Source: Argiope bruennichi
Taxonomy: Eukaryota
Length of the DNA stretch: 64,000 bases
NCBI RefSeq assembly: GCF_947563725.1
Contig: NC_079163.1
Coordinates: 54,886,922-54,950,921 of the forward strand
Reading direction: 5' to 3'
The notes below the pieces were generated by a model that had not been told where the DNA came from, ran no database searches, and worked only from the letters and a program-made list of their open reading frames with translations. Positions 961 through 64,000 of the stretch are shown in pieces. The stretch's first letter is position 1. Each line of letters opens with the position of its first letter. Made by a program: the position numbers and the translations under genes.

Positions 961-983
961 ATTATTATTATTATTATTATTTA
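961..983. repeat. (ATT)n microsatellite just upstream of the FS-exon acceptor
   Basis: attattattattattattattatt read directly. Confidence 0.95.
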
Positions 984-1022
984 GCTTTTTAATATTAATG
1001 CTTTTTTTTTTGTACATTTCAG

Positions 1023-8300: not shown

Positions 8301-11300
8301 AAACAATTTAGATTACATTTATTTTCAGTAAATTTAACCATTAAAAGAAACCTATTAATGTGAATTGATTATAAAAATACTTTCTTTTATTATTTTATCA
8401 TTATTTTCAAAACAGCAAACAAATATAAAATAAGTTTACTTATTTAAATAAAATTCGGTTAGTTACTATCCCATATAGAATTAAAGGAACTCATTATGAA
8501 TTAAATAAACTGCAAACAATAAAAATACATGCTGATTTTTATCCTGGATATAAGTCCATGAAATACGTTATTTCTATGCGACCACAGCCCAAATTACCAT
8601 CGATCGAGAATTGAGGCTATCGAAGTAAAACTAATGATTAATTGTTCCAAAAGTATGGTTAAATTGACTTTAAAAATATGACGTCTCCCTCTTTTCGCAT
8701 GAGTAGATACCTTCACTAGCAACTGATCCCAGCTAAATTTCAAAGTATCATGCCGTGTTAAATTTCCTATTCGATTTTACAGAAACTAAATACATTAAGT
8801 CTAGGTGATTACGTTTCGTGATGATATAAAATTTTAAGGTGCTTTTTTTCTTTGGAGATGATAATTAAAGAATAATTGATTTCTGTAGAACAAATTTTAA
8901 AGAGTCTATTTAAAGCTAAATAATTATAGAAATTTAAACTTAATAGATTAAAACACAATATATAGCGGAACATGTCTTATTCGAAGTTGACCGAATCACA
9001 ATAAAAGTTGGATGTACTTAAAAATTCAAATGAAGAAAAATTAAATCTAAAAACAGATATTGATAAATGAAAACGACAATTTTTAAACTCAAAATGGCAA
9101 TAAAATTTTAATTTGTGCCAAGTTTAATAATAATGAATAATTCATAATGGATTATAAATAACGAATAATCTAGATAAATAAAACAGAAGTAATCAATGGC
9201 TCATCTGTTGTGTTGCCTGATTGTAATCCATAATAAAACCACAAATGATTTAGTTGCAGGTATTTGTGGATTTTTAAGCCGGTTCCACCACATATTTATA
9301 TTTCACCGTCTTACGAGAGTTTATGTTTGCTGAAAGTTGTTTCATATTAAAGGGATAACAAAATGGAAATGACTCCAGGAGTTACCTCTACTTTTCAATT
9401 AATTAACGAGTTAAGGAACCCTATTTCCCGAGAAATGCGAAAATTAATAAATGGAGTTCTTTCATGCATGAAAACAACAAGCCTTGTTTATTATAAGCCA
9501 GTACATGTAACCGAAAACTTTCTCAGAATGGAGCGATATCTTTTTTGCAGCAAATTCTTCAATTTTAATTAACAAAATTTATACAGCGCTTTGAATGCAA
9601 TAATAATTAAAACAATAATGTATCTTTCAAAATAAAAAAAAAATTCACCTACAGGCGCTCAATTTTTTTTAAAGAAGTATGAAAATTCCTTGAATAAATA
9701 GATCGTACTTCTGTGAAATCGTCGAGGAAATTAACAGACTTGAAAAAAACTATTCGCTTGCGGATGCAAAATACGAAGGAATTTAATCAATGAAAACAAC
9801 TCAGAAATAATCCAGTTTTTTACAACTTTTGCTTTTGACTTAAAACTAATCTAAATAAATTCTAATTTCAGAAGAATTTTTATTGTAAACAAGAAATTCA
9901 AGGAACCAGAGATAAAATTCGAAGAAAAAAGTTCGACTTATTCAAATTCCTTTGTACATGAAAATGCAGAAAACCACGTCTTAAGTTCGAAATGCGAATG
10001 AATTTCTGTGCATTTTAAACATAGCACGAATAAAAATACGCCTGGTAATAAATGTTCTAAGTTATTTCTGGAATTCGACTTTAAAAATCGTCTGCAAAAA
10101 ACAGATGTTAATATGTTATTTCTATATATTGTACTACTCGTGTCATAATTTTTTTTTACCTGCAATGCAGAATGTGTTTACGGATTTTGCAAACGATTTC
10201 AGAATCTAAAAAAATTTATTCTCAGCAGAATCATGGTTGGTAACACCGAAAGTATGTTTGAAATGGGAAATTATTGCTATGAATAGCTTTAGCCCTTTTT
10301 ATGGCGTGATATCATAACTGGAAAATCTTATCAAAAATTCAGTTTTTTTTTTGTGTGTGTTTTGAAATATAAAATGAGGGATTTTATTTACTAAAAAAAG
10401 CGGCAAGCGTTGATTTAAACAAATTAAAAGCATAAATTGATATCTAAAAAAGGTTCTTAATCACCTAGCTCTACAGAAGTCGCATCGATTTTTTAATAAA
10501 AAACCTAAGCTATGAACAGCTCCTGAATTTTTTTTTATTACGGCTCATAAACTATAAATACAATAATTAAAAAAAATTCAATGAAATGAAAGCAAAAATA
10601 TATTTCTTGCTGTCTTTTACATGGACATGTAACCGAACAAAGAAATGAAGACTAAATTATTATAAAAAAAAACTTTTTAGAAAGATTGAAGCGAAAAATA
10701 TATTACCATTATTACTAGACAGTACTATAGTTCAATTACCGTAATAAAAAAAAAAGAGATTTATTTGCGAATCATATTTACGAAAGTCAGAAATTTGATT
10801 TAAAGTATGCAAGGGAAGTTTAAAAAAAGATTTATGGACAAAAAGTATATTAAAAAAGAATTTATGGACAAAAAATTATGGACTAAGAAAAGATTTATTA
10901 GTATGCATTTCATGGAATATTTAAGTCAAGAAATGCTGCAAAAATGCAAAATTGAACTCTAACTATTACTAAAAAAATTTAGACGATAATTTTTAAAGAA
11001 GCATTCCAAAATTTTATTGAATGAATGAACGGAGAATTTAAACGGGAGTAAGAATTCCAGACGCTCATAGAATGAAATAGAACCAACACAACCATCGCAT
11101 GCATCATGCCATGTTAAATTTCCTACTCTATTTTGATATATCGAGGAGACCACGCAAGAAGAACCTGTTATCCTATACTTAACATTTAACAGCAAACCTG
11201 CAAGTGTCCAGTTGTTGTTTCAAGGGATATATATGCTTTTTAAATTTAATCTTTTTTTGTTTTGTTTTTTAATTTAACTGATTTTAATGATTACACTTTG

Positions 11301-14170: not shown

Positions 14171-15041
14171 TATTAGAATCAAGTTAATAGGAAAAACAAA
14201 AATCAAAAAAATTAAACCAAAAAAATTATAAAAAATATAAAAAAAGAATCCGGCCTGAAGACTTTTTCAAGGGTCACCCTCAGGCAGGGATTCAAAGAAA
14301 GGGATTTTTTCTGTGAGGAAAAACAGACATTGTCTAAAAATGATTCCTCTTGACCCGAAAATCCCCTGAAATTATGCTCAAGAGATATACCATTTTAACA
14401 GAAAGGAAATATAAAACAACAAATAAGAAGAAATTAACCACAACAAAGTAAAAATACAATAACAAAAATAACAATAAAAACAAACAATAGCACAAAATTA
14501 AAAATTAAAAACGAAAAGGCCAGTACATACCATTAACAGTCAAGAAAACTTTAAACTATTGATTGTGATTCCGTTTTTAAAAAACTAGCGGTAAATTATG
14601 TAAACAGATGTAGGCTCCCAGCGCCATCTATTGAGTAATCCAATATGCAAGGAAAGTTCTATTTTTATTTAAGCCAAAGGATTAATCCCAAACCATACCT
14701 TGTTTAATTAAAAAATTGACATTACAGTAATTTCTAGGAAATTCATTTTTAATTAAATTTTTAAGGAGGTTGTTTGATGCTTCAATATAAGAATTTTTAT
14801 TATTGCAAACCCTTTTGATCCTGTTAACTTGTGAGAAAATTAGATTTTTGAAAATTTTAGAGTTTAGATTGGAATGGTAGTTACATAGTTTTGTTATTTT
14901 AAAGCTGAAATCATCCCTTTTATCGTATATACCAACTATTGTTTTATCAGTAGCAATTTCGATTTTTAAATCCAGAAAGGTAGCCTCAAGTTGATTTTTA
15001 TTTGTATCTTTTAGAATTAAATCTTTTGGATAGCAATTAGT

Positions 15042-15045
<4 letters not shown>

Positions 15046-15112
<67 letters not shown>
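15046..15112. repeat. (TA)33 microsatellite
   Basis: Direct reading. It creates the artefactual MIYIYIYIY... start of ORF 14682-15116. Confidence 0.95.
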
Positions 15113-15115
<3 letters not shown>

Positions 15116-15197
15116 TGGAATATGACTAAAGCATTGTTTCATATCATCAATTTGGAGTGATTCAAAATCATTCAATTTTTTATTTTCTCTACACAGC

Positions 15198-17232: not shown

Positions 17233-17535
17233 TTTCATGTACTTATGTATCAATAGCGTACCAGCGATTACTTGCCAAAACCAGTCGCCAGAGATTGCAC
17301 CCTAACATGCTTTTTCGTAATTGAAATTCGCTAATGGCAAGCGGCTATTAATACATAAGCACATTTAATAGAAAGTTTCTTGTAGATTACTACCATTCGG
17401 TAGAAGTTCTCTCAAATTTTTGAAGCTTCCAAGTAGTCACCTTCCGCATCCCGGTTCATTACTCTGTAATGCTATTTCTACATTATTTGCTTACAAAAAC
17501 ATAATTTCTTTAGATATATCCAAGACCATTCCTAA

Positions 17536-17822
17536 TGTTTAGTTTAGTAATATTAAAATCCCGTTTTAAAGCAACACTAAGGCTATTTTGGCACAGACCT
17601 CGCAATTTTGAACCACGGTCAGAAAGTGAGGGCGAAACCTGAGATGGCACCTCCCCACTCCAAACTTCCACACCACACCAGCTGGAGGACATTTGGCCCC
17701 GACGGATTTAACGTGTTCCAGACCCGCTTACACGACGGTTCTTTGATGAAACCTGAAACCTCCACCCCCTACCCCCACCCCGCTTCCGAAATCGAGACTT
17801 TAGGGCCCGCGAACTGATAAAC
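17536..17822 (-). mobile_element. SINE-A family copy (tRNA-derived; minus orientation; head partly degenerate)
   Basis: Homologous over about 280 bp to the full copy at 31222-31500. Shared + strand blocks include cccgttttaaagcaacactaaggctattttggcacagacctcgcaattttgaaccacggtcag...gatttaacgtg...cgacggttctt. ORFs 17510-17692(-) and 17608-17817(+) lie inside it and are spurious. Confidence 0.75.
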
Positions 17823-24646: not shown

Positions 24647-26256
24647 CGCTTTGCCTTGTAATCTTGTAAACAGAAGGATTAGAATAAGTTTGTTTGTATT
24701 TTAACTACTTGGAATATATTGTTAGAAATGTAAATATCTTAGACGAGTTCGTAAATGGCTCATCTAGCTGAAAGGGGGTGGAAATGGTTAGGAGGTTGAA
24801 ATTTTCAAATTTTCATTTCGTTATAACTTTCTTAATTTTAACGATAGAATCATAAATTTATTTAGCAAAATTATCGCCTCTTTAAGACGATATATATATA
24901 AACGAATGATCAGTGAAGAACTTGAAGAAATTTTTCCGAAGTCTTGTCATGAGAACCAATGACTGTTTAAGAACTTTCTTTCACCTAATATTCATTGCGG
25001 CTTCTCCACATTCTGCATAATAATTGTAAAAGTAAACGAAAGGATTTATAATTATAGCTAATTAATAATCCAAAGTAATAGCTATTGGAAAAGTTTTCTC
25101 TGTTTTATCTTAGTCATATTTTTCCCCCAGATGAATTTCAACATATGATACACCGATACTGAATTTCGCCGTCTATTTTAATAACGGCAGAGTAAATAGC
25201 TGCAATTTCGCATAGCAGTTTTCAAATTGTTACATGAATTCGATTGGAAAACTAAGTTTTTTTTTTGGTTCATAAAATTTTTAAGATAAAAATTCAATGG
25301 ACTCTCTGTTTTAATATGATGTAAATATCTTTTGAGAAACGGATAGCATTCGGATATTCTTTTTGATAAATTTTACAAAAAATTATATCACCGAAAAATG
25401 GCACAAAATAAAATGGCGATTTTTAATACTTACAACTAAACTTGAAAGAAATTACAGCTCTGTAACTGAAAAAGTTATAGCTGAAAACTTACCTAAGCTA
25501 TGCATTGGATCGGAAAGCACATATTGGCGTTTTCAACATTATAGAAGAGACTGAAGATAAATTTTCTTTGTTCAAATCTTTGTTCCACTTTTTGCATTAT
25601 TTCATACTAGTTGAGTCAGCAAAGAGTAAAAATTAAGTAAGTTCTCTATAATTAAAATATGTGCTCAGTTTTTTTTTTTTTTTTTAACTTTCTGTATTTA
25701 CGCGAATGCAATAGCTGTTCTTTTAGTTCTTGTGTTATGTGCGTGCGTTTTTCACAAGCCACTGCTCCTTAACTATTTGCGAAAACATAAAATTCTTTTG
25801 ATACATAGCCATAAAAATTGCTAGTTATACGATTTTGATACATTGCAGTTGCTATTTCTCTAGTTTGAAAAATGAGTTCAGGTTCATGACATTACCATTA
25901 TACTCATACTAAAATAACTAACTAATAACTTTTCAGTAATTTTCAGATAACACTGCCATCATTATTGAAAAGATTTTGTAAATTCGGTTGTCTGTACTTG
26001 TATCAATTTACGCATTGATTTAGTAACATATGCTATTGAGCATCATTTTGTATTACATTCTGAATAAAGATAAATAACTTGAGTTAAATGCAATATTGAA
26101 CTATTATTGGTCGTAGAATACTGTTTGTCTCATTTATCGTAGATTTCCATCAGTTGACTGACAAATTATATTTATTTTATTTAATTACATACTTATCTTA
26201 TTTATCGAGCAAATGATCTAAAATGATAATAGAAAAGAAGTATTAAATTCACTAAC

Positions 26257-26529
26257 CAGGCCATCACGGTCCATAATAGTGATTTTCCAACCCCAGTCTT
26301 CATTTTGAACCACATCGTTGATTCGATTCACCGTATAGCAATCAATAGATAACGAATGAGCAAAAGTGATGACGTCCATGTCATGATTAAGACCAAGAAC
26401 ATTCTGATATTTGATTTCAGCTTGCCTCAAAGCCTCTATGATGGTCATCAAGGGAGACACCGTGACAGTGATGTCACGATTGATTGGGTTCAAATCGTCA
26501 CCAGAATTCACTCGAATAGTTGCTCCAAC
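26257..26529 (-). CDS. Internal coding exon (91 codons, phase 0 to 0) of a minus-strand gene, encoding a cysteine-poor globular segment of unknown family
   Basis: Acceptor on the minus strand is atatatgttttttttttaattactttcAG|GTTGGAGCA. Donor is GATGGCCTG|GTTAGTgaat. The open frame reads VGATIRVNSGDDLNPINRDITVTVSPLMTIIEALRQAEIKYQNVLGLNHDMDVITFAHSLSIDCYTVNRINDVVQNEDWGWKITIMDRDGL. Composition is non-repetitive and not AT-biased, and the frame is continuous with the exon at 29107-29481. Confidence 0.6.
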
Positions 26530-29106
26530 CTGAAAGTAATTAAAAAAAAAACATATATGATCAAGGGAAGTTTGCGAGTGCCATCATTACAGGTTTATAT
26601 CAAAAAGCATGCCGCCTTTTATGTATTTATTTATTTTGAAATATGAGTCCTGATTTCAAGATGTATGATAAGTATGAATTTTGGAATCATTTGCTCCAAG
26701 CTAAAGTAGATAAAATCTAAACTCAGCGTGAAAAATAACTTAAGCCATGGGCAATGCTTTGTATCAGAGGGCTTTGTATATCGCTTTCTTTCATTATTCC
26801 TAATCTTTTAACAATTCGTAGATCAGAATTACAGCCAAATCAAGATCTCAAATAGGTATATTGACTTTAAAATTCTTTTGTTCAAATAGAATTCTCTTGT
26901 TCAAAATGTTTGTTATATTCAAAATTGAAATATTTTGATATTTTAAATAAAGATAAGACATTTTTTTCTAAAAAAAGATTCTTTTCAGTGTTGTAAAAGT
27001 AAATATATCCCAAGTATTTTCGAATCTTTTTCTTATTTGGATATATAAAAGTGAAATAATTTGGATCTAAAAAAGAGAAATAATTTGAATCTAAAAAAGG
27101 GAAATAAAAGCACAATTATTTTGTCTTCTTGTGTCTTTCCCCTAAGAAAAGAGTTCAGCATATTTATACCCTTCTAGCCCCTTTTATCTAATGTCACTTA
27201 ATCCCTTGCATCTTGCGTTTTTTTTTTCAAAGTTTTTATATTATATTCATATAAAAATGAAAGCACTTTGTAGTATTTATCCTTTCATTTTTAATTTCCT
27301 CATAACTAAGAAAGATGGAATTTGTTGAATGTTACTTTTTGATAATTTATGAACTTGTCAATGCAGATAGAAAGGTTTAAAGAAACATTTTTAATGCAGT
27401 GGCTTATAATTTTATTCACATTTTTGTTAGCAATATACTTTCTTGGAAATTAAAATAGGTTCTTCTTGTTTTTCATATTCATTGTTTTTATCAGTCATAC
27501 TTTTGTATATGAAATTTTTCACATCAATGCTTTATTCAGAAGTTATTTTCCCCTTGTTTCGTTGGGTTTTTTTTTGGGGGGGGGAGCATTTTTTTTCCTC
27601 AAACGGGGGATTCAGTATATTTCCTCTCAGTCTAAAAGCAATCAACCAACTAAATTTTCTTTCTTCTTCTGTTTCGAAATATATACATACAAATAATTTT
27701 TATTATTATACAAAATATGCGATATGAGTATCGTTTCCTGAGATTTTGTTCAAAGTTATAAAAACGTTTCAGCGGAATTTTGTAATAACGGTTTGCTCTA
27801 ATCTTCTATCAGATTAATAATATATCTATCGTGGTTTTGACTTCTTATATTCTGTCGAAGAGAAAATTAACTTAGTCGTATTTGTACATGCAGCTGGCAA
27901 TGAAAGAAACGAAAATAAAAAATAAAGTTACATAAAACTTGCAGGTTTTCACACTTTGTCAGTTTGTCACTTGACATTGTAAGGAAGGCCGGCGAAATAT
28001 ATGAAATACTAATTGTTTCACATTTCAACTAAAATTGCCTAAATATTATACGGAATGCCACATTTTGAATTTACTGATAACATATAATATGAAGCCTAAC
28101 CTTAAAATATTGATTGTTATTTTAATTTATATAATTCCAAAGGATTTTATTTACGATACTGAAGTTAAAATAATTTAATAACTTATTTATCATGTAAGCA
28201 TGACAGTTAATAACATCAAAACTCCTTATATCAGATTTTTGAAAGAAACTCATTTTAATTTACGGAAATAACTAAGAAAATAGCAAATGCGCTAAATTTG
28301 GAAAGTTCTATTAATATATTTTTATGATGGTCTTATTTTCAAGCACGAGCTTAAATCTAATGGAAATATGAGACCTTAAATATTTAAGCGATTTTTTTAG
28401 TAACTTATTGCATTGATTCTTATATTTATCTACTAATGCGCTCTAACCCCCCTCCCCCTTGCAACTTCTTTCAACTATTCCTTAAGTATTTTTTTAATTT
28501 TGCAAGCTTATTGTTATACTTATTGGTAAACAAGAAATCTTGTTTCAGAAATTTCTAGAAATATTTCTAAGAAGCGATAAATATTTCAAACAGAAGTGGA
28601 ATCTTTATCTTTTTTTTTTTTTTTTAATCTGTTGTATTTTCACTCTGAAAGCTTAGCAAATGCAAAATACTTAGCAAGATTTGTTTTAAAACAAGCATTT
28701 ACGAATAAATTAATCAAAACAGTTTTCGAGAGCGCACTTTTATGAATGGACTTAACAGCAGAATTTTTCTCCTTTCATTTACTTTTTACTTTGTAATTAA
28801 TAATTCATTATTATAAATATTATAGATTCTTGTAAACAATTTTTTTCAAATCCACTTCCAGATGGCGGCACTCATAAGGAATCAAAACTTAATTAGATTA
28901 ATAGATTAATGGATAACTAAATTCTGAAAATTTTAAAACAATGTATTAGTATCGAAAAGTGCAACACGTCAGGAAAAGAGAGAAAAACCATTTTAAAAAA
29001 TTCTATCTTTAGAAACATAAAACAAGTTAAATTGAATAAAAGTGTGTAAAAATACAATATGAAGAATTAAGAATAAAATGCATGATGAATAAAGAACAAA
29101 TCTTAC

Positions 29107-29481
29107 CGGTGGTCTTAAGTGGTTGCTTTTCATAGGGATGGGAAAGATGGGAAACACTGCTGGCAAGACATGGTTCACCTTTGGTACAGTAGGTACTACG
29201 TTACCGAATACAAAAGGTGCTTCATTTCTCACTTTTAAGTCTGGTTTCATCATGGGAGGAAACATATTGGGGAAACTGTTTTGAATAGGATCAGCAGGCG
29301 CTACAGGGATTATAACAACATTAGCGTCTTCCTCTTCACTGCCGCTGAGGGGATCATTCGAAGGCAAGGAGTAAGGAGTATTGCTAGGAGCAGGCGGAAA
29401 TCGTGGCTGTGGAGGTACATCCATGATAGAGGGACTAAGCAGTTCAGGAAGAGGAATAGCATCGATGGAATTCAGCATGTT
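29107..29481 (-). CDS. Internal coding exon (125 codons, phase 0 to 0) encoding a proline-rich segment
   Basis: Acceptor is tgtgtgccttttttgcttttttAG|AACATGCTGAATTCC. Donor is TTAAGACCACCG|GTAAGAtttg. The translation is NMLNSIDAIPLPELLSPSIMDVPPQPRFPPAPSNTPYSLPSNDPLSGSEEEDANVVIIPVAPADPIQNSFPNMFPPMMKPDLKVRNEAPFVFGNVVPTVPKVNHVLPAVFPIFPIPMKSNHLRPP. It is the longest open frame in the window, and GC-balanced codon usage is unlike the AT-rich background. Confidence 0.65.
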
Positions 29482-31221
29482 CTAAAAAAGCAAAAAAGGC
29501 ACACAAAAAAAGATTCATCATTATAAATGATGATAGTTGAAAATACAAAATTAATAGTTAGTACATTCGATACTTTTCAAATGTGATATAAATAAAAAAA
29601 TACTTCATTCATGAAAGTTAGTAAAATGTTCAAAATGCAAATAATAATAATAATAATAAATAAATAAAATAAAAATACTTTAAATCTAAATATTTCACGA
29701 ACTCATGGCGCATTCCGTATTTGAGTGTTTTCATAGTAATGATCGATTGTAATGGATTCAATCATTTGTAAGACTCAAACAGCTGGATAATAACAATAGT
29801 TTTATAACACGGTAAAATCTCTCAAACCCAACGCGCAATTAATTGGCAATATTAAAATAAAGGCAGTTTTAATGATATAATTTTAAATCTGAAATTGAGC
29901 CTTATGAGATAAAAAATGAAAGATATGTAATTGATTAGTGATTAGTACTTAATAGTAAAGAAGAAGGGTGGGATGTAAGCCATACTATTTCTGTCATTAT
30001 CTCCCTTTCCTTTGATACCGACAATTGATTTGAAATCGAACATGTGTTGATAACAAAATCGAACTAGTAACCGTATAAAGAGCTCATAAAGAGCATCTTA
30101 AAATTGAAATTATTCTTTAGTAATGAAGTAAAAGCATAAAAATATGATTTCCTGCTTAAAATGTCAAGAAAAACATTCCATATATATATATAGTAAAAGA
30201 GATAATTTTTTTTTTTTTTTTTTACATATATTTACCACAATTCAGTCTCAAAAAAAATATAGCTGATGTTTACTTAAATCCTTTCTTAAAAGCAATGGAA
30301 TTTCTCTTAATTTGTTAAGGTAAAAAGTTAATTGTGAAGGAATGCGCACATTAAGTATTAGCTTTTGTTTCCGATAACCATGTCAAGACAAATTTACGCA
30401 GTAACATTCACAGTCAAAGAAAACTTTTTTATTGAAAGCATTTTTTTTTTAATCTTTTGTTCGCTTCAGTAGCTCTGTTTTCAATAACAGCGCAATAATT
30501 TTATAAATTGACGGAAAAAGGAAGAAAAAAACTTGTTTACATATGTTTGAAATCTATTTTTTTCTTAGAACTGAAAACATTTTTACATTTCCTTAGAAAT
30601 ATTCAATGAATGCTAAATAAATGTTTATTTTCAGCATGGGAGAATATTAAATTGCTAAATGCTACTGTGGACTTTTATAATTATAATTTTAATACCTATA
30701 TTTTTTGCCTATTTCTATTGAATGTAAAAACCAGCTATCTGTAATCATCTGCTAAAAAGAATAAATATTGAAGAGAATTCTTGACTTAAGAGAATAACTT
30801 AAATATTTGAGAGAATTCTTGATATTTAAGAAATTTTTTTTTTCAAAATTAATAAAGTATGTTTTTGTATTTGTTATTTTATGGACGGGAATGCACAGAA
30901 TTCGGCTTTAGATATGCAAACGTTTTATTTCTTATTATTATTCAGTTCCACCATGTTCATTTTTGAGATCTAATGTCGATTCAATTAATCATCTGCTTAA
31001 AAAGTTTTTTTAATAATTGGAAAGTTTTTTTAAAATTCAAGTCAATACCTTCCTTAAGTTCGGCGAAGGGCAAGAAATTCGCCATATTGAGATTTTTTGC
31101 TGTTGTTACGAAAGTAGTCAGGGGAGATGTAAAGATATGCAGTTTCATGAATTACTGAAAAATTGATGTACTGAAGTTGTCCAGAATGCTACTCAAACGA
31201 GTAAGAAACAACGCCTGATGT

Positions 31222-31500
31222 TGGTTGGTTGGTTTGGTTATATTAACGTCCCGTTTTGAAGCAACACAAGGGCTATTTTGGGACGGACCTCGTAATTTTG
31301 AACCGCGGTCAGATGACGAGGACGACATCTGAGCTGGCACCCCCCTCTCCACACCACACCAGCGGGAGGAAGTTTGGTCATGACGGATTTAACGTGCAAC
31401 TGACCCCCTTACGCGACGGTTCTTCGGTGGAATCGGGTCTCGAACCTGAAACCCTCCGGTTCCGAAGCTGAGACCTTACCACCAGGCCACCGCGGCCCGT
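31222..31500 (-). mobile_element. Full-length SINE-A (tRNA-derived) insertion flanked by a 16-bp target-site duplication AAACAACGCCTGATGT (31206-31221 and 31501-31516)
   Basis: Minus-strand head: GGGCCGCGGTGGCCTGGTGGTAAGGTCTCAGCTTCGGAACCGGAGGGTTTCAGGTTCGAGACCCG. The A box is TGGCCTGGTGGT and the B box is GGTTCGAGACC. The tail ends in ...TAATATAACCAAACCAACCAACCA. Exact direct repeats abut both ends. ORFs 31152-31352(-) and 31256-31471(+) are internal and spurious. Confidence 0.85.
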
Positions 31501-32933
31501 AAACAACGCCTGATGTACGGCGGATTGGTTTACTGAATCAACACTTCCTCATTTGGGCAGGCGACATCTATAAAGGGGAACAAATAATCATGAAGCAGCT
31601 GATAATAGCATTTCCTGTTCAATTTGGCTAATTTAATCCGGGCAAAAGAAATGCTCTTCATATCATTATAGAACCATCAATTTTTGCGGTACCTTGTTGG
31701 GAAGTTTGGTCCGTAGTCTTCTGACCCTTTTTCATTTACCTAAGATCAAATGCCTATAATTAATTCCATCACAAGTTGAAATGCCACTTGTCAATGATAA
31801 GCAGTGGGTAAAAGCACTCGGTTTTCAGCTGCCTTATTTCTGCACCGATGCAGTCTTTTGCTGCCATACCTCATAAACTCCAAAGTTTTCTTTTTTGCTG
31901 CTGGTCGCCAGATTCTATTATATACGTCATTAAATTTGATAAGGTGGCGCAGTGTCATTCGCCTACTCACATGAATACGTTAGATAAGATATTTTAATAA
32001 TAATAATTTTAATTCTCTGACTGCTAATTTTTAAATTACTATTTAAGTAGTAGTAACAAACAAGTTCAAATATTTTTTTTTAATGAAACGAATTTTTATT
32101 ACATGTTACCCATTAATAATACGATATATTGTTAATATAGTTAAAATGGTTAAATACATTAATATTTAAGTTAAATGATAATAGTTAAAAATGTAATAGT
32201 AGAAAATATTAGCCTACGAAAATCGTAGGATGCAGTAGAAAACAGCCTGACTTCCAATCCTTGAAAATCTCGTGATAAGGATTTGGAAGGTTACAAATAT
32301 CGATTTCATTAAATAACTAAATAATTCTAATAAATAAAGAGTATTAGAACTTAGAATAAAAAGATAAAACTTTAAAATCAGCAATAGAATTTACATTTGA
32401 AATTTTGAAATTTTTATAGAATTAGAATTTTTTTTATTGTTTTAGATAAATTGATTATAAACTGTTATGAGAACTAAGAACCATAGAAAAATATTCACTA
32501 GCCATCACTGATCACAAATGGTAGTGACGTATTTAACTAATGAAAAATAATTCAAGTACAAAAATAACTTATTACAATTTTTAGATTTGATTTCGAATTA
32601 ATTAAATAAATTCTAATTATGGAGGATTTTTAAAGTTATGATAAAAAGAAAATTCAATAACTAAAGAAAAATTCGAATTGCAGAAGAATTCGAATTAGTT
32701 AAATTCCACGATTTATGAACTATTTTTAAGTTCATTAGGATCATATTGAGGATTATTTGACTGAGAGTGTTGTAGCTTTCATGGCAATGTCCACTTGAGT
32801 TGCTATTGACTGTAGTTATTTTCAGCTACGAGTAAAAAGAGAGAGAGAACGGAAATGGGGAAGAAAAACTATTCAAATGTAAAGAAGAGAAACCATATCC
32901 AATTAACTTTCACCGGAAGGAAAGAAGTCTTAC

Positions 32934-33305
32934 CTCTTCAATTTCCTCTCTGTTCTTCATCCTTTTATACAGCGTCTTCAAAATCGCAAATGGATTTGTT
33001 CCTTTTCTCAGTGCGACTGCTTCGATGAGGTCTTGTAGGTCATTCAAGCCCACGCTGTCGACAATTTCTTCCATGTCGCATCCGACGACCCGATTACTTT
33101 GCAGTGCCATCCTGTTCGCCGAGGTTTTCAGAGGATCCAGATTGTTTTCCATGTCCGACAGTTGCTTGATTGCATTGAACTGCGGATAGTTGGAGATGGA
33201 AGAGTGGACGACTCCCATCAGCAGAAGGAAAGCGACGGAAGGAGAGAACATCCTTGGGATGCTGGAAGAGGGACAGACTCAAAGAAAAGCTTCACTGGGG
33301 GGATT
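32934..33305 (-). CDS. First coding exon of the minus-strand gene: ATG at 33251-33249, CDS 33251-32934 (106 codons); the exon starts at a 3' splice site at 33305, which implies an upstream non-coding exon
   Basis: Minus strand reads tttttttttctctAG|AATCCCCCCAGTGAAGC...TTTGAGTCTGTCCCTCTTCCAGCATCCCAAGG ATG, with an in-frame TGA 30 nt upstream of the ATG. The translation is MFSPSVAFLLLMGVVHSSISNYPQFNAIKQLSDMENNLDPLKTSANRMALQSNRVVGCDMEEIVDSVGLNDLQDLIEAVALRKGTNPFAILKTLYKRMKNREEIEE. Donor is GAAATTGAAGAG|GTAAGActtc. The hydrophobic N-terminus VAFLLLMGVV looks like a signal peptide. Confidence 0.6.
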
Positions 33306-35396: not shown

Positions 35397-37002
35397 TGAT
35401 AATAGGCATCTTTTCTCATATCGAGAGTTAAGATTCCTTTCAAGATGGTAGGTAAATAAGCAATAAATAGAATCAATACATTTAGTGAAAACGTGAATAG
35501 ATTCTGTGGGCCTCATTTTATTTGATAACAGCCTTGTATTATTTGTTTAGAAAAAAAATTAAAAAATTTGTTCTGCAAAAATTTTTTTAACTTGTATAGA
35601 TTTCAAGAGTAAGCAAAATAAATAGATAAATAATTTTTTTTAATGAAAAGCTTTTTTTTTGTAGTTTTTTTAAGTAAGTCTACCCCTTCCCCCTCCAAAG
35701 GCATGTGCACTTAATTTTCGTTTTGACTTCGTTAGCATTGCATGTTTTATTGATTAAAATTAATTGATTTGCAATTTTTTTGTCACTTTAAAGAAAAACT
35801 GGCATCTCAAAGAATCACAGATTTATGCTTTATTTTTCTGATGCTATTGCAATGATTGTAGCCTCAAATCAAATGTAAATGAAAGAATTACTTTAAAAGT
35901 TTAATTACAAATGAAACATTGACATAAATATTTGCATCAAGATGTTAATTAGAATTTATATAAAAAAGAAAACCACGAAGTATATGATTAAAATAATACT
36001 ATATCCTATTAAGAGTTTTTCGATTGAATAAAACTGAAATTAATTGAGTAAATAATATTTATAGGAAATTATTATGCAGCAGCTTTTGACAACACAGATT
36101 TCAGCAGATTTTTGAAGGATTCATGGGTAAAAAAATGTTTCAATTTAAGTGCAAATTTCCTGATGATAAAGTATATAAAAAGGTGATTAGCTAGTTTTAT
36201 CATTTTATTTCATTACTTTGTCTCATCTCTAGAATACTCTTTTTCTTTACAATAAAATATGTTGCAAAAGTTATTTTTTCTTTAATAATGAATTCCTTTC
36301 ATAAAAATTCATCTTTTCATTTCATATACAAATATAATTTCTGTCTTCTAGATTTGCGACTTGAATTTTAATAATAATAATAAAGAAACATTTTCCTGCT
36401 ATTTAATTTATACACTCAGCAACTATTTATGGAATGCTTTCTTTTTTTATATAAACTGACTACCTAAAATATTTTGAGGTGGGCGGTAACATTATTATTA
36501 TTTTTTTTTTTTTTTTGCACGAGTATTTAGGTATGTGGTTATAGAAAAATAACCTCTTTAAATAAGGGATGAAATTAAATCTCATTATTATTATTATTAT
36601 TTTGTAAAAAAGAAAGCTTTCTCCCGACGTTACATTGTTTTTAACCTCATTTTGTTAGTCCTCTATTTTTAATTGTTAGAAATTAAAGATAAACGATTTT
36701 TATTTTCAACGGTTAGAATTTCTTATCTATAAATTATAATGTAAAAACAATAATTTCTAATTAAAACAGTGAAAAATCACCTTTTAATGTATTATGAGCA
36801 AATTATACTGCAAAACATAAATTGAAAAAAAACATCGTTCCTCTTTATTTTTATGTGATCTTCTTATCAATTGACTATTAAGCTTCCCAGAGAATTCTGT
36901 ATGTAACTCTAATTATTATAAAATCTGTAATATTTGTTATTTCAAGGACTTATCCTTTATATATTCAGCTAGATACTTGTGGAGCAGCTCGGTTTCATCA
37001 AA

Positions 37003-37140
37003 GTATTGTTTTGAAGGGATTTGAGGGATATTTTGTGACCGATCTCTTAATTTTGAACCGTGATAAAATGATGAGCACGATATCTGAGCAGGTACTCACT
37101 CTCAATTAACACATCAGTTGGGGGACAAGAGGTCAACCAG
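37003..37140 (-). mobile_element. SINE-A family fragment (body only)
   Basis: gttttgaagggatttgagggatattttgtgaccgatctcttaattttgaaccgtgataaaatgatgagcacgatatctgagcagg aligns with the + strand of the 31222-31500 copy (cccgttttgaagcaacacaagggctattttgggacggacctcgtaattttgaaccgcggtcagatgacgaggacgacatctgagctgg). Confidence 0.55.
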
Positions 37141-43900: not shown

Positions 43901-46900
43901 ATGTATTCTTTATGAGCCTATGCAACTTCATTATTACAGAAGTTAATTATCGTTTAATTGATTAATTGAGTTAAATTTTCCTTTTTTTAGTTATATATTT
44001 GAGGAAAAAAATATTTTATGATTTTTTAATATTCATTATAATGAATTATAAATTAAAATCGAACATAATTAAAACAAAATATTCTGTTTTTGATTTTTTT
44101 TTAAAAACTATTCTGTGAAATTGATTTTAAAATACTATGGCACTGAATCCTTTAAAGTGCAGGCAGACGCGTAATTAAAGAATTTTCATACCGATGAATA
44201 GTGAATTTTAAAACAGCAATTTTAATGCAGTAATTAGAATTAAATTAGTGCTAATAACATTTTACGTGATAAAAAATATTGAAGAAGCGTTTAATAACCT
44301 GGCATTTAAAGATATGCAATAAAAGAATAACAATACCCAGAATATGTTTAAAAATTGAATAAAGTAAGAGGATACAGGCCAATGAAATATTCAGAAAGTT
44401 AAAGAGATTGTAAATAACCGTAGATCTTTGATACTCTAAATTTAACAGAATAAATATTGAAAAGGAAACGTGTCATGCTTGATCAAATGATTACACAAAG
44501 TATTAATACTGGGAAAAGCTTTCTTGAATGCCTAGGACAAGATTTTTAATGAAAATCATGAGTGAATAATGATCAATCTCATTTATTAATCATTAATGAG
44601 TTTTGCTTGAAATTAATACAACATCATGATGTTGCAACCAATATTAACATCCGTTTGATTAATTATCAACTAATGTTGAAATAGGGTTGTTAGGTGTTAA
44701 AATAATCTTTGAAAGCTTTCAGTTATTCAAGTAATTCATTCATTAACCATTATTCAATATTACAATTAATATAACAGCGATAGTTATTTAGTAATAGCTA
44801 TTCAATACAACAACTCATCATGCTTGCAAATGAGTTGTCTTTCGGTTTTTAAGTTTTCGAGCTCCTTCAGAAAAGAATTTTTATTATATGAATCAGTAAG
44901 CCTTGAGTGCCTATACAGGATAGTGTTGGCCCTGTGACAGAACCTCAACTTTTGGACAGAAGTGTAGAGATTCGATTCCACAAAAGTTTGTCCAATAAAT
45001 GGATTAATGCTCATTAAATTTGAGTTCCCTTCTAATATGTTGTAGATTCAAAGAGAGGGTTATTGACTCTAGAATAATTTTTTGTCATCTGCAACACTTC
45101 GAGGTGCTTGCGGAAAAAACTCGCGTTTAGCTTCAAAATAGAAAAGTTAATCTAATAAACTTATATTAAGAAATTTGATTAATGTGATTATCTGCGTTGT
45201 TATGGTTACTTTATTTATTGGATTTCAGAGTTAAAGTTTGTTTTTTGTTTTTAATTTTGCCACCTCTTCCTCAAGAATTTTTAATAACTGCTATTATAAC
45301 GCTGGTTAAAAGCAGCCAAGGATCGCACTTTTTTCTCTTACTTTCATTCTTCAATAAAGCATTTCATTCAAAAATTGACGTAAAAATTTCATTTCAAGTT
45401 TGTGTTCAAAATGGATTCATTATTAATGAATTACAAAACTATTATTACAAAATTAAATGAATTACAAATTTCTTTCAAAATACATGCAAAAAATTAATAT
45501 GAAAAAATATCCAATTTTGAAATCAAATGATACAGGTGAGAAATTTTTCTTACAATATAATTTCTTCATAGCCAATTTGGGAATGAAAACATTTAGTTCA
45601 TAATAGAGATACCGATATGTGAACATAATATTGTATTATTTTATCGTATTGCTTTATTTTTTACAGATTTTACTCTGAAAAAATTATTTATATAATAATG
45701 GAAATATAGCTAAAAATCTTAGCAATGAAAGAAAAACAAAGGATAATAAAATATTTATTATTTTGAATAAGGGAAAAAATTACTTAACACTTAGAAAATC
45801 TTAATTTTGCAACTTATCTGTAAAACCTATGATAATCAAGTTTTTGTTAAGCTGAGAAAAGTTAAATAAACATATAAACTATAAATAATTCTACAAAAAC
45901 ATTTTCTTTTATTATTTATTGCTCCTTCTATTTAAAAAAATTGGACTTAAATCTGATAAAAAGAATTGTAATAACTATGCATTAAAGTTTTCTTAATTAT
46001 TGATATAAATGTTTTCGCACCTTTCAGAAAGGGGATCCGAGCGACATTTTCAGATGAAAATGCAGTGAAGAAAAGTTTTGCGAAAGATTCATATTAATTT
46101 TAGCATTTTTGTTGAAACGCAGAGATATTCAACTTTATTTTCAATAAAAATTAAATTTATTCCTAAATATAATATATTTTCAAAATTTCATCAATAAATA
46201 ATCATTAACATTTCAGTTAAACCATTTTCCAATTCTTCCACCAGAAATTTTCTGATCATTTTTATTTTCTTATCAAACGAACTGATTTTACACAAACATG
46301 CAGATCATGAATTTTTCTGGTAATCGTATTTACAATAACAAAGAAATAATTTTTTTAAATTATTCCAGAAAAAAATCTCAACATTTAAATTGAAAGATCC
46401 TAATGTGTTTTTTATTGAAACATATTTAGATTACTTCAAAATCTCTCAAAACTAAACATCCTAAATTTTCTTTTCTAAAACATATAGACTTTGTCAAAGT
46501 TCGAAGAATAATGTTTGTGGAAATCATCACAAACAGTTTGTGCGATTCTGTTTAAATCATTGTTAATAAATTCGCACTTGTAATTCTTAAGTAATTGCGC
46601 AGAGAGTTCTAACAGATTCTATTTAAAATTACAGAAAAAATTTTAAATCTTAAAATTTACAAGTTTTCTTATCGACAATATGCGATTATTTAACTAATTA
46701 TCTTAAAATATTATTGAAAACATTTGCGATAATCTTGATTTGAGTTAATAATGATATTAGCTCTTAAACACAAGAAATGCCTTATTAAAACTTCATCCCC
46801 AAAAAAATTTCACAATTTTAAACTAGAATTTCTAAGAATTATTTTACTGGTAACTTTTTAATCATTGCAGAGTCTTCAAAAACTAAATATTACACATTTT

Positions 46901-50021: not shown

Positions 50022-51564
50022 CCTTTCGGCATCTTCAGAAGTTCAATGACATAGGTGTACCAGTTTGTTTAAAATGATGAGTCCTTAATCAATTGATGCT
50101 ACCCATTGAACTGGTTCGTTTTCTCTACTATTTAATTAGAAAACGCTTTTTATTTGGAAATGTTACGTTATTTTTATTTTAATGATAATCCAAAGAACAC
50201 TTGAGATATTTGTGCATTTTGGTTAATTTTTATATTAAATCATAACAATTATGAATGACAATTATCGATTAAAAAATGTAAAAATATAATAAATCGATGC
50301 TCATAGAGTAAGGAGATGCAAGTTAAGGGGTTAATAATGATATTATTAAGCTTCAGTATGAAAACATTTTTTAAACACCGATTGATTATCTTTCAACACT
50401 TCAGCGAAAATACGTGTATATTGATTGCGGGAACCGAAAAAAAAGTAAAGGAGTTCTCAAATGCTTTACATTTTTTAAAAATCATATATACTCTGGTAGG
50501 ATAACATATTATTCGATATTGTACGATATTATGCGATGTTGCAAATGTAGCTAGATATCATAATATGTTGTCCAGCATTTGCGTGCTATTGTGATTTTAT
50601 AGTACTGAGGTACCTAAAAGCTGAGGAATCGAAAGGCTCACTGGAAGCGTTCAGGTTTAAATAATAATATATGATACTGTATGAAAATAATGTAATAATA
50701 ATGATGAACATATTATATAAATAAATGTTTAATGAGATTTTTCTATTCTGTGCGGTATTAAAACGAAACAAAGATGGGTTTTAAAGCTTCACGAATGTTA
50801 TTTTGGCATATATAAAGTAATTTTTAGTTCTGTCCAAACAATAAAGACAGCACATGAGTCGTCATTCCGTTTCCAAATTTTAACAGTACAGTAGTGGAAG
50901 GCGTTTGATCCAGATAGTAGTTGAAATCCATGAAAAAACGCGCAATTGGGTTTACTCGACATTCTGAAAAAACATAAAAAATAATTTTTTATCAAGCGCA
51001 AATTACTATTTTTTATTCATCTATTTTCACTTTTGTTAAAGTTAAAAAGAAAAACTTTAAAAAAAGTCTAATATTCTTCAGGTATGTGGTTAATTTGTGT
51101 GATCAAAATGAGAGCATACATTTAAATTAAAAAAATCTGTATAATCCATTGATATTTTTAAAAATATTATTCCATACGCACAAAAGGACAGTATTTTAAT
51201 TGTAGAAAGATGTTAAAAATAAAAGAAATGTGACTATATCGTTTTTTGTTGAAGAAATGTAAACGATATTTTACAGCTGCAAATTTCGATCGAAGTATGC
51301 TCCTGAATGACCAACCTTTGTACTGTGAACTATAAACTTTCAAAATAGATGCCACGACTTCTCGCTTCATAGCGAACCCACCCATCACAGGATAATGCGA
51401 CGTTTCATAAAACAGGACGCATTTATCAGTCCAACAAAGTCCTGAATCCGCATATTTATATATCATTTTTCGTACTCCAATGCCTCAACCCCCCCCCACC
51501 TTAATAAATAATATAAATCATATTCAAACCCCAATTCCACTCACGATCCGTCTTCTGTTTGGGC

Positions 51565-51700
51565 CTAGAAGCGTGGAAGCTCAGATAAGAGGAGCTAACT
51601 CAGGTATCGTTCTCGTCGTTCGATCACGGTTTAAAAGTGCGAGGTCCGTTGCTGAAATACCCTCGTTTTACTGGTTAAAACGAAGCAATAACCCACCATT
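51565..51700 (+). mobile_element. SINE-A family fragment (3' body, + orientation, rearranged)
   Basis: cgttctcgtcgttcgatcacggtttaaaagtgcgaggtccgttgctgaaatac matches the minus strand of the 31222-31500 copy (CGTCCTCGTCATCTGACCGCGGTTCAAAATTACGAGGTCCGTCCCAAAATAGCC). ORF 51480-51737(+) is internal and spurious. Confidence 0.4.
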
Positions 51701-53070
51701 CCTAAGATCTAGGATACTTGGGACCTCAGAAGACTGAAGCATCCGAGTTCGTCTCTCAAAGATAAGAGAAATTTATTTTCTGCCACGAAAACACATGGCA
51801 GCTTGTAATCTTAAATGATTGATTTACAAAAGAGGACTCTGATTTGTCAAAGATTTCAGGGGAATTTGGGGAAGGAAATGGATTCGGCTCTCCCTTCCCA
51901 CGATGGGAACCCACTCTAACAAATAAAACACACTCTTCCACTATTCTATTAATAAGATGGAATGGATGAAAATTTTATAGAGATATTCGGGTGATCGCCG
52001 GACATTTCAGGTACTACAATATTGAAAGCGCTAATGTAACTAAAGGAATATTTTATCCATAAAGTATTGGATATGTATAAACGAAATCAAATAAAACTCA
52101 ATATCTGCTGCATATCCAGAGAGTAAAATATAATCTACGCTGAATTAACCGTGGTAAAATTTTCTTTGCTGATTTGTATAATTTATTACAGTATAATTGT
52201 GTAATTCAGTATAAAAATACTAAAATTTAAGACACTAGAGAGTTATGAATTGAATCATGCATAAGGAAACATCCATTCTCTGAGAAATCATACATGTGTA
52301 CAAAATTATGTTACAAAATCATCATAAAAAGTAAAAATATACAGCTTCACGAAGTACATATTCATCTCCATATACTAACAACAAGTAAAGAAACCTAGAT
52401 GATACTATGATTGTATTCTCAAATCATAAAATTAAAATAGTTCTTATTTGTTTTAAAAGTAAAAAATTAAGCAAGTGAAAATCTTGTATTTTGTGGATAT
52501 TTAATCTTATAATTAGAGAAAAAAATCTAAATATACTCTAACGTGAAAATGATAATAAGTGAAATTAAAGTTTTTTATCATTCATAATTTTTTGCACTCG
52601 GCATTCATAATTTTTTAGTTTATATAACAAAATGGATATTCTGAAAGTTTTTAAAATCGACATCGGTAAATATTAGAGATATGCCTTAGCAGTGCTCATA
52701 ACATTCATACATAAAATAATGGCTAAACGTGAACACAAACTGATTTAGAAATAAATCCTACGAAAAAATTATATATGTTCATTAACTTTCATCCCCAATA
52801 TGTTATTGTATCAAAATTCAGTATCCTACCCTTGAATCTGTTTGTTTATAAGGTCATAATTTTTTGTTTCCTTTTCTTCTCGGAGGATTGGGGGTAATTT
52901 TTGTTTGAATAAAGATGAATCTCTTTAATAAAGCTCTTAATAAAAGAATCATTTAAAAAAATATTTAATTTTCTCGTATACGAAGTACAAAAGAAGTATA
53001 ATCGTCAAAAAATTCGAACTCGAGATTTTTACGCATCTCCACGTTTCACACCTCCCTAGGTTAGAAAAAT

Positions 53071-59050: not shown

Positions 59051-59374
59051 AGGCTGTGTCTCTAGTTTTATCAGTAGTGCCATCTAGGACCAAGAGTACG
59101 ACTTAGCTACACACACGTCATAACCCGTTTTACGGGGCAGACTTCATTCATGCATTTCATTCACAGATCGTAATTTAGACCTGAACCAGAGAACGATCAC
59201 CCTTGATCCAGTATCCCCAGTGGTATTATTGTCGACATGGAGGACTTTGGGACCACGACAAATTTATACGTGAGTCAGCTACCACACACACGGAGAGTCT
59301 TTGGCCGGCGGGATCTGAGCTCGTAACCCAAGAGACGCGAATCCAACGCCCTACCAACCAGGCTATCCCAGCCC
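59051..59374 (-). mobile_element. SINE-B family copy (tRNA-derived head GGGCTGGGATAGCCTGGTTGGTAGGGCG...GGGTTACGAGC; followed by A6 on the + strand)
   Basis: The tail (...tgtgaatgaaatgcatgaatgaagtctgccccgtaaaacgggttatgacgtgtgtgtagctaagtcgtactcttggtcctagatggcac) is homologous to the 11601 copy. ORF 59203-59427(+) is internal and spurious. Confidence 0.65.
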
Positions 59375-63965: not shown

Positions 63966-64000
63966 GGGGTCGCGGTAGCCTGGTGGTAAGGCTTCGGCTT
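63966..64000 (+). mobile_element. 5' head of another SINE-A copy, truncated by the window end
   Basis: GGGGTCGCGGTAGCCTGGTGGTAAGGCTTCGGCTT matches the head of the 31222-31500 copy (GGGCCGCGGTGGCCTGGTGGTAAGGTCTCAGCTTCGG) at about 85%. Confidence 0.7.

What the first reader, a model, noticed from the sequence alone, without database searches (positions are those of the whole stretch)
31206..31516. Intact tRNA-derived SINE-A insertion with a perfect 16-bp target-site duplication; family has at least five copies in 64 kb
The copy at 31222-31500 is bracketed by exact AAACAACGCCTGATGT direct repeats. It carries a tRNA-like head with recognisable pol III A and B boxes on the minus strand and ends in an (AACC)-like simple tail. 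An intact TSD implies a relatively recent insertion and defines the family's full length at about 279 bp. Other copies are at 17536-17822 (minus, degenerate head), 37003-37140 (minus, body fragment), 51565-51700 (+, rearranged) and 63966-end (+, head only). Several spurious ORF-track entries (17510-17692, 17608-17817, 31152-31352, 31256-31471, 51480-51737) fall inside this family.
Basis: seen in the sequence. Interest (0 to 1): 0.55.

Follow-up and report, generated by a model that had tools for sequence, protein, structure and literature searches.

The report
Spider SINE retroposon insertion with target duplication
This is an ordinary short "jumping gene" (a SINE retroposon) that copied itself into the genome of an orb-weaver-type spider; it is real and cleanly bounded, and it is not unusual except that public databases wrongly list hundreds of its copies as proteins.

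Summary
A 279-bp GC-rich element (31222-31500, sense on the minus strand) is flanked by an exact 16-bp direct repeat that occurs nowhere else in the window. It has pol III A and B boxes at tRNA-like positions, a body and an 18-nt (AACCA)-like tail. It has no terminal inverted repeats and stop codons in every frame.

The window is spider DNA at about 29% GC. The translated element matches only short "hypothetical proteins" of Araneus ventricosus and Trichonephila clavipes. DNA fetched around those proteins holds the same element. Five further copies there, full-length or 5'-truncated, each have their own 12-14-bp target-site duplication. That pattern indicates LINE-mediated target-primed reverse transcription.

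- The tRNA origin is only weakly supported, and the parent tRNA cannot be named.
- The intact duplication bounds the insertion age only loosely.
- No partner LINE was found.
- I could not check Repbase or Dfam, so "unnamed" is untested.

The 3' half is up to 96% identical between the window copy and A. ventricosus copies, while the 5' body is about 70%. This is a routine member of a well-known class of element and of low interest.

The parts
31501..31516 (-). Target-site duplication, 5'-flanking copy in element sense (AAACAACGCCTGATGT on the + strand)
   Evidence: This is one of only two copies of the exact 16-mer in the window; 0 of 100 shuffles gave two matches.
31424..31500 (-). tRNA-like head (element positions 1-77) with the pol III internal promoter: A box at 31479-31489, B box at 31436-31446
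   Evidence: Regex matches to the A-box and B-box consensus lie 43 nt apart, start to start. There is a weak Rfam tRNA hit at 31425-31491(-), 15.1 bits. ARAGORN finds a cloverleaf only at 80% of its threshold. A relaxed A-box pattern ([TC][AG]G[CT]NN[AG]GTGG) is found in 8 of 11 head-bearing copies from three species; 4 of them match the strict TRGCNNAGTGG.
31351..31423 (-). 5' body (element positions 78-150), the part that varies between subfamilies
   Evidence: It is 64-77% identical to A. ventricosus and T. clavipes copies. Two subfamily types are visible in the alignment.
31240..31350 (-). Conserved 3' module (element positions 151-261), the presumed site recognised by the partner LINE's reverse transcriptase; it contains a 10-bp hairpin at 31309-31332
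   Evidence: Positions 151-262 match the A. ventricosus copy on L007 at 108/112 (96%). Truncated A. ventricosus copies are 93-96% identical to it. Covariation for the hairpins does not exceed the shuffles.
31222..31239 (-). Simple-repeat tail AACCAAACCAACCAACCA
   Evidence: Read from the sequence. Family tails are (AACTA)2-3 in A. ventricosus and AACTAAACCAAACCA in the L005 copy.
31206..31221 (-). Target-site duplication, 3'-flanking copy in element sense
17536..17822 (-). Older full-length family copy; A and B boxes lost, tail ACTAAACTAAA, no recognisable TSD
   Evidence: blastn gives 79% identity over element positions 69-275. nhmmer covers profile positions 5-279, E = 6e-76. Sequence.
36992..37126 (-). 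Decayed copy; only the 3' part is recognisable
   Evidence: nhmmer covers profile positions 128-269, E = 6e-15. blastn gives 77% identity.
51571..51681 (+). Decayed copy, 3' module only; possible remnants of the head/body junction lie just upstream
   Evidence: nhmmer covers profile positions 145-253, E = 3e-15. Sequence.
63967..64000 (+). 5' end of another copy (A box TAGCCTGGTGG), cut off by the end of the window
   Evidence: blastn gives 85% identity over element positions 3-36. Sequence. A box.
50778..50913 (-). Weak, very old remnant of the family
   Evidence: nhmmer covers profile positions 117-253, E = 4.5e-5.

Best explanation
The element at 31222-31500 is one insertion of a non-autonomous retroposon (a SINE) that is abundant in araneid spiders.

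[quoted passage not shown] The transcript's conserved 3' module and (AACYA)n tail are bound by the reverse transcriptase of a partner LINE. That enzyme nicks the chromosome, primes reverse transcription on the nick, and copies the RNA into the target. Repair of the staggered second-strand break duplicates 16 bp of target on each side of the insertion. The enzyme sometimes falls off early, which leaves 5'-truncated copies.

Shown here: the architecture (head, body, tail), exact and variable-length TSDs in six copies, 5' truncation, interspersed multi-copy distribution in three spider genomes, and the absence of coding capacity and of terminal inverted repeats.

Inferred, not shown: pol III transcription, the tRNA parent, the identity of the partner LINE, and whether this particular copy is still active.
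For: - TSD: an exact 16-bp repeat at the precise element ends, which does not extend.
- Promoter: A box TGGCCTGGTGG and B box GGTTCGAGACC at tRNA-like positions. A relaxed A-box pattern is found in 8 of 11 head-bearing copies from the window, A. ventricosus and T. clavipes, and 4 of them match the strict TRGCNNAGTGG.
- Same ends elsewhere: full-length copies of 267-288 bp in A. ventricosus and T. clavipes loci.
- Independent TSDs: CTATGACCTTTCTC (L001); CTTTCATAAGAAA around a 5'-truncated copy (L005); AAGCTTTCTCTC around a 60-bp 3' remnant (L004); CCCCCCGGnAGTC (L006) and CCCACCCCATCAT (L008) around truncated copies.
- Not a DNA transposon: no terminal inverted repeats.
- Not coding: stops in all six frames and no Pfam domain.
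- Modular conservation: the 3' module is up to 96% identical to A. ventricosus copies, against 64-77% for the 5' body.
- Copy number: 671 representative protein clusters match its translation. At least 7 copies or remnants lie in this 64 kb.
- Typical of the class: TSDs of 6-18 bp, microsatellite tails and LINE-derived 3' ends are reported for tRNA-related SINEs (PMC11481361; definitions in PMC3531059).
Against: - No partner LINE sharing the 3' module or tail was found. The roughly 214 kb of spider DNA in hand has no reverse-transcriptase ORF next to a 3'-module match. The two SINE reading frames searched as protein found no long protein with a reverse-transcriptase domain.
- The head fails the tRNA thresholds.
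- No empty orthologous site could be examined. The only orthologous locus available, from T. clavipes, aligns only at one exon and one short conserved segment.
- Transcription was not tested.
Confidence: 0.9

Rival explanations
1. The two 16-mers belong to a local or segmental duplication rather than to a target-site duplication, and the repeat element merely lies between them.
For: A second short imperfect repeat (12/14) exists in the flanks at 31162-31175 and 31524-31537.
Against: - That second repeat is not colinear with the 16-mers (spacing 362 against 295).
- The 16-mers abut exactly the 5' and 3' ends that the family has in other genomes.
- Other copies each have their own different flanking duplications.
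- The identity does not extend one base beyond the 16 bp.
Confidence: 0.02
2. The element is a non-autonomous DNA transposon (a MITE) mobilised by a transposase.
For: It is short, non-coding, multi-copy and flanked by direct repeats.
Against: - It has no terminal inverted repeats.
- TSD length varies from 12 to 16 bp and TSD sequence is unrelated between copies.
- Copies are truncated only from the 5' end and keep the tail.
- It has a polar structure with a pol III promoter at one end and a simple-repeat tail at the other.
Confidence: 0.02
3. The element is a functional tRNA gene, a tRNA pseudogene or another structured small-RNA gene, not a mobile element.
For: It has A and B boxes and a weak tRNA covariance-model hit.
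Against: - ARAGORN finds no tRNA at default settings.
- No Rfam family reaches its gathering score anywhere in the window.
- The 3' half of the acceptor stem is missing, and the anticodon call differs between copies.
- About 200 nt of non-tRNA body plus a tail follow the head, and the whole unit is dispersed with TSDs.
Confidence: 0.01
4. The region encodes a real small protein, as its relatives are annotated in A. ventricosus and T. clavipes.
For: There are 83 and 24 database 'hypothetical proteins' matching two frames of the element, and 671 representative clusters.
Against: - Two overlapping frames of the same DNA are both annotated.
- The window copy has stops in every frame.
- There is no Pfam domain.
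- Matches sit at arbitrary positions in proteins of 61-868 aa.
- The DNA carries retroposon hallmarks.
Confidence: 0.01

Closest known systems
tRNA-related SINEs with a LINE-derived 3' region and microsatellite tail (SINEBase definition, PMC3531059; bivalve tRNA-related SINEs, PMC11481361)
   Same: It shares the head/body/tail layout, internal A and B boxes, and a length of a few hundred bp. It also shares a simple-repeat tail, TSDs within the 6-18-bp range reported there, and a strongly conserved module that persists across genera.
   Different: No partner LINE was identified here. The tail unit, (AACTA)n/(AACCA)n, is a pentamer.
Automatically classified SINEs of Trichonephila antipodiana (RepeatMasker classes tRNA-Deu, MIR, tRNA-Core, tRNA; 106,507 copies, 1.11% of the genome; PMC7976613)
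   Same: They occur in the same group of spiders and in a comparable abundance class. Copies of the present family occur in T. clavipes.
   Different: That paper gives only class totals, with no family sequences or names. Whether this family is one of those classes is therefore unknown.
Ruka, the SINE of ixodid ticks (Sunter et al. 2008, cited in PMC3531059), which I believe is the only chelicerate SINE in SINEBase
   Same: It is a chelicerate tRNA-type SINE that is frequent in genomic DNA and in transcribed sequences.
   Different: I have not seen its sequence, so I made no comparison. The resemblance is one of kind only, and the point about SINEBase is recalled from the citation and my own knowledge.

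Membership tests
SINE (non-autonomous, pol III-transcribed, LINE-dependent retroposon) | Internal pol III type-2 promoter: A box and B box in the 5' head at tRNA-like spacing | tested here: met
   TGGCCTGGTGG lies at positions 12-22 and GGTTCGAGACC at 55-65. A relaxed A-box pattern is found in 8 of 11 head-bearing copies from three species, 4 of them matching the strict consensus. The strict B box is found in 2, with one-mismatch versions in others.
SINE (non-autonomous, pol III-transcribed, LINE-dependent retroposon) | Head derived from a cellular pol III RNA (tRNA, 5S or 7SL) | tested here: inconclusive
   The Rfam tRNA model scores 15.1 bits against a gathering score of 29, E = 2.6. An A. 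ventricosus copy gives no hit. ARAGORN calls a tRNA only at 80% of its threshold, as Pro, Leu, Lys or undetermined depending on the copy. There are no 5S or 7SL hits.
SINE (non-autonomous, pol III-transcribed, LINE-dependent retroposon) | Short (under about 600 bp) and without coding capacity | tested here: met
   The element is 279 bp, has stops in all six frames, and has no Pfam domain.
SINE (non-autonomous, pol III-transcribed, LINE-dependent retroposon) | 3' tail of simple repeats | tested here: met
   The tail here is AACCAAACCAACCAACCA. Related copies end in (AACTA)2-3.
SINE (non-autonomous, pol III-transcribed, LINE-dependent retroposon) | Insertions flanked by TSDs of variable length and unrelated sequence; 5' truncation | tested here: met
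   The TSD here is 16 bp. Five further copies have TSDs of 12-14 bp, and three of those copies are 5'-truncated.
SINE (non-autonomous, pol III-transcribed, LINE-dependent retroposon) | Interspersed and in high copy number | tested here: met
   There are at least 7 copies or remnants in 64 kb and 1-8 per fetched locus of 12-22 kb. Its translation matches 671 protein clusters. No genome-wide count was possible.
SINE (non-autonomous, pol III-transcribed, LINE-dependent retroposon) | A partner LINE sharing the 3' end or tail | tested here: inconclusive
   None was found in about 214 kb of spider DNA or among protein hits to two reading frames. The sample is far too small to exclude one.
SINE superfamilies with highly conserved central domains (CORE, Deu, V, Meta and others) | Sequence homology of the central domain to the superfamily consensus | not testable with these tools
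Exact-string searches of the literature for three conserved motifs gave nothing relevant.
tRNA gene | Passes the tRNA covariance-model or cloverleaf thresholds | tested here: not met
   ARAGORN finds 0 genes. Rfam at gathering thresholds finds 0. The best tRNA hit scores 15.1 bits against 29.
MITE / non-autonomous DNA transposon | Terminal inverted repeats and a TSD of fixed length | tested here: not met
   The only inverted repeat is an internal 10-bp hairpin. TSDs range from 12 to 16 bp.

The most novel reading that the evidence does not exclude
This may be a family that has not been formally described: an araneid-specific tRNA-like SINE, part of a wider spider SINE group that includes the distant relative at 59150-59375. 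Its 3' module has stayed about 96% identical between the window copy and copies in Araneus ventricosus, while the rest of the element has diverged. It would be mobilised by an unidentified LINE that uses (AACTA)n tails. The family would also account for hundreds of bogus 'hypothetical proteins' in the public A. ventricosus and T. clavipes proteomes.
Probability: 0.35. Interest if true: 0.25.

Novelty: new member of a known kind. Interest (0 to 1): 0.15.

Why it matters
The value is mainly for annotation. Spider genomes are reported with 20% or more 'unclassified' repeats and very different SINE totals: 0.08% in Argiope bruennichi against 1.1% in Trichonephila antipodiana (PMC7788392, PMC7976613). 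A curated consensus for this family would move part of that fraction into a defined class.

It would also flag several hundred spurious protein entries, since 671 representative clusters match the translated element. Clean TSD-flanked insertions like this one could serve as presence/absence markers for araneid phylogeny or population studies. None of this changes what is known about how SINEs work.

Tried and rejected
1. **Naming the parental tRNA.** ARAGORN at default settings finds nothing. At 80% and 60% thresholds its anticodon calls conflict between copies. Rfam gives a sub-threshold hit or none. I treat that as a lead, not a result.

2. **Finding the partner LINE.**
   - There is no reverse-transcriptase ORF next to any 3'-module match.
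   - No other element in the sampled DNA ends in the same tail.
   - Protein searches with two SINE frames returned mostly short proteins (79-145 aa; 82-98 aa; 61-233 aa).
   - The one long hit (868 aa) has no domain. One partial protein joins a SINE 3' end to a LINE endonuclease N-terminus, which is an adjacency and not a shared 3' end.

3. **Testing for an empty orthologous site.** The T. clavipes agrin-like locus aligns to the window only at one exon (83%) and one short segment (79%), so the non-coding sequence around the insertion cannot be compared.

4. **Identifying the species.** Ten ATG-started window ORFs are not in the protein collection. The best exon match is 89% amino-acid identity to T. 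clavipes.

5. **Scanning metagenomes.** Two conserved motifs gave 0 hits.

6. **Searching the literature.** Searches for a named spider SINE and for exact motif strings found nothing relevant.

7. **Testing hairpins in the 3' module.** About 74% of cells are paired, but covariation does not exceed the shuffles (35/500 and 52/500), so this is inconclusive.

8. **Treating the 37-kb and 51-kb pieces as LINE 3' ends or another family sharing a module.** I rejected this because comparable partial blastn hits in the other spider loci extended to near full length under the profile search, and because they share no upstream sequence with each other.
Full report
**What is in the sequence**

The window is AT-rich (about 29% GC) with no bacterial character. 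Between 31222 and 31500 lies a 279-bp island of 56% GC. It is bracketed by AAACAACGCCTGATGT at 31206-31221 and 31501-31516. This 16-mer occurs only at these two places, even with two mismatches allowed. The chance expectation is 0.01, and 0 of 100 shuffles gave two matches.

The identity stops exactly at the 16-mer on both sides. The only other flank repeat is a 12/14 match that is not colinear with it.

**Anatomy, read on the minus strand**

| Element positions | Window coordinates | Feature |
|---|---|---|
| 1-77 | 31424-31500 | tRNA-like head |
| 12-22 | 31479-31489 | A box TGGCCTGGTGG |
| 55-65 | 31436-31446 | B box GGTTCGAGACC |
| 78-150 | 31351-31423 | 5' body |
| 151-261 | 31240-31350 | 3' module, with a 10-bp hairpin at 31309-31332 |
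| 262-279 | 31222-31239 | tail AACCAAACCAACCAACCA |

The boxes come and the hairpin. There are no terminal inverted repeats, every reading frame has stops, and Pfam finds nothing.

The tRNA resemblance is weak:
- ARAGORN finds no tRNA at default settings.
- Rfam finds nothing at gathering thresholds.
- The tRNA model gives 15.1 bits against a gathering score of 29.
- An A. ventricosus copy gives no tRNA hit at all.
- Relaxed ARAGORN runs call a 72-nt cloverleaf at the same place in several copies, but with different anticodons.

The head is therefore tRNA-like in its promoter and layout, but the parent tRNA cannot be named. I treat that as a lead.

**Family within the window**

- 17537-17818(-): full length, boxes destroyed.
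- 36992-37126(-): 3' part.
- 51571-51681(+): 3' part.
- 63967-64000(+): the 5' end of a copy, cut by the window edge.

Two faint remnants are added, at 50778-50913(-) and 45088-45152(+).

**Where it comes from**

One frame of the element, translated, matches 83 database proteins. All are 79-145-aa 'hypothetical proteins' of the spiders Araneus ventricosus and Trichonephila clavipes.

A second, overlapping frame matches 24 more A. ventricosus proteins of 82-98 aa. An exhaustive search counts 671 representative clusters at E of 0.001 or below. Every one that I looked up is from those two species.

Two overlapping frames of one non-coding repeat cannot both be genes, so these are spurious gene models.

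A Kazal exon at 944-1249 is 89% identical in amino acids to a T. clavipes protein. That protein's neighbour carries the agrin N-terminal domain. At the DNA level only that exon (83%) and one short segment (79%) align with the T. clavipes locus. The window is therefore from a spider related to these two species but is not T. clavipes.

**Evidence from related loci**

I fetched DNA around eight of the proteins. It holds the same element at 267-288 bp with the same ends. Individual copies carry their own target-site duplications:

| Locus | Copy | TSD |
|---|---|---|
| L001 | full-length | CTATGACCTTTCTC |
| L005 | 5'-truncated | CTTTCATAAGAAA |
| L004 | 60-bp 3' remnant | AAGCTTTCTCTC |
| L006 | truncated | CCCCCCGGnAGTC |
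| L008 | truncated | CCCACCCCATCAT |

Duplications of variable length and unrelated sequence, truncation only from the 5' end, and retention of the tail together mark LINE-type target-primed reverse transcription. They argue against a DNA transposon or a segmental duplication.

**Modular conservation**

Compared with A. ventricosus copies, the window copy differs by region:
- head: 74-85% identical in the four full-length copies;
- 5' body: 64-77%;
- 3' module: up to 96% (108/112).

Truncated A. ventricosus copies are 93-96% identical to the window copy over the 3' module. Two subfamily types of the 5' body are visible.

This pattern fits a 3' region held constant because the partner LINE's reverse transcriptase must recognise it. 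That is inference. No such LINE turned up in the roughly 214 kb of spider DNA in hand or among the protein hits. Two hairpins can be drawn in the 3' module, but covariation does not exceed the shuffles.

The family tail is (AACTA)n in A. ventricosus, and this copy has an (AACCA)-like variant. A majority consensus of six copies is given.

**Age**

A perfect 16/16 duplication has probability exp(-16d) for pairwise divergence d. It therefore excludes only d above about 0.19 at the 5% level.

Better indicators of relative youth come from comparison with old copies:

| Indicator | This copy | Old copies |
|---|---|---|
| GC content | 56% | 36-48% |
| CpG observed/expected | 1.02 | 0.57-0.69 |
| Strict B box | intact | not found |

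Its A box matches only the relaxed pattern, with G in place of A at the seventh position. 'Relatively recent' is reasonable but cannot be quantified without the genome.

**Comparison with what is known**

The element meets the SINEBase structural definition of head, body and simple-repeat tail (PMC3531059). It behaves like the tRNA-related SINEs described in bivalves, which have TSDs of 6-18 bp, microsatellite tails and LINE-derived 3' ends (PMC11481361).

Spider genome papers report SINEs only as RepeatMasker class totals:
- T. antipodiana: 106,507 SINE copies, classed as tRNA-Deu, MIR, tRNA-Core or tRNA (PMC7976613).
- A. bruennichi: 0.08% SINEs alongside 20.5% unclassified repeats (PMC7788392).

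I found no paper that names or describes this family. I could not query Repbase or Dfam, where an automatically built model may well exist. Membership of a central-domain superfamily could not be tested for lack of consensus sequences.

**Verdict**

The finding is correct and well observed. It is a routine SINE insertion, so it rates as a new member of a known kind, or already known if a repeat library holds it. The most useful by-products are a family consensus for spider repeat annotation and the recognition that hundreds of public spider 'proteins' are translations of this repeat.

Noticed in passing
window 59150-59375 (-): A second GC-rich (about 50%) SINE-like element has its own tRNA-like head (GGGCTGGGATAGCCTGGTTGGTAGGGCG...GGGTTACGAGCTCAGATCCCGCC). 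It aligns colinearly with the 31222-31500 copy across head, body and 3' part: local score 66 against 26.8 +/- 4.5 for shuffles, maximum 41. The family profile does not detect it and it has no Rfam hit. It is probably a distant sister family.
   Followed up: partly
protein databases (P0001-P0236); loci L001, L002, L004-L008: Translations of this SINE match 671 representative protein clusters. Every named one that I sampled is a 'hypothetical protein' of Araneus ventricosus or Trichonephila clavipes. Two overlapping frames are both annotated, so these are spurious gene models.
   Followed up: yes
window 944-1249 (+); L003: A Kazal-domain exon (Pfam Kazal_2, E = 6e-11) is 89% identical in amino acids to a T. 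clavipes protein labelled Fstl5. That protein's upstream neighbour has the agrin N-terminal (NtA) domain. The window therefore starts inside an agrin- or follistatin-like gene. Whether the SINE 30 kb downstream is intronic was not resolved.
   Followed up: partly
window 8634-8778: This segment is 79% identical to T. clavipes L003 18383-18527 and colinear with the Kazal exon. It has stops in all three + frames, so it is either a conserved non-coding element or a shared repeat.
   Followed up: no
window 28993-29478 (-), 32910-33251 (-), 26218-26511 (-): Three minus-strand ORFs (161, 113 and 97 aa) look like real coding exons. One is proline-rich and one has a signal-peptide-like start. The 33.0-33.2-kb ORF sits in a 49.5% GC peak. 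None has a Pfam domain.
   Followed up: partly
window 14682-15116 (-): A 144-aa ORF begins in an (IY)n run produced by a TA-rich microsatellite and continues into a non-repetitive stretch with no Pfam hit. It may be a fragment of another mobile element.
   Followed up: no
L008 9123-11128: In A. ventricosus, one 5'-truncated SINE copy with an exact 13-bp TSD sits between gene models carrying DUF7041 and a reverse-transcriptase (RVT_1) domain. This suggests the SINE inserted into a retroelement.
   Followed up: no
L005 7434-7883 (+): An ORF in this A. ventricosus locus reads like a PIF1/Helitron-type helicase fragment, judged by eye only.
   Followed up: no
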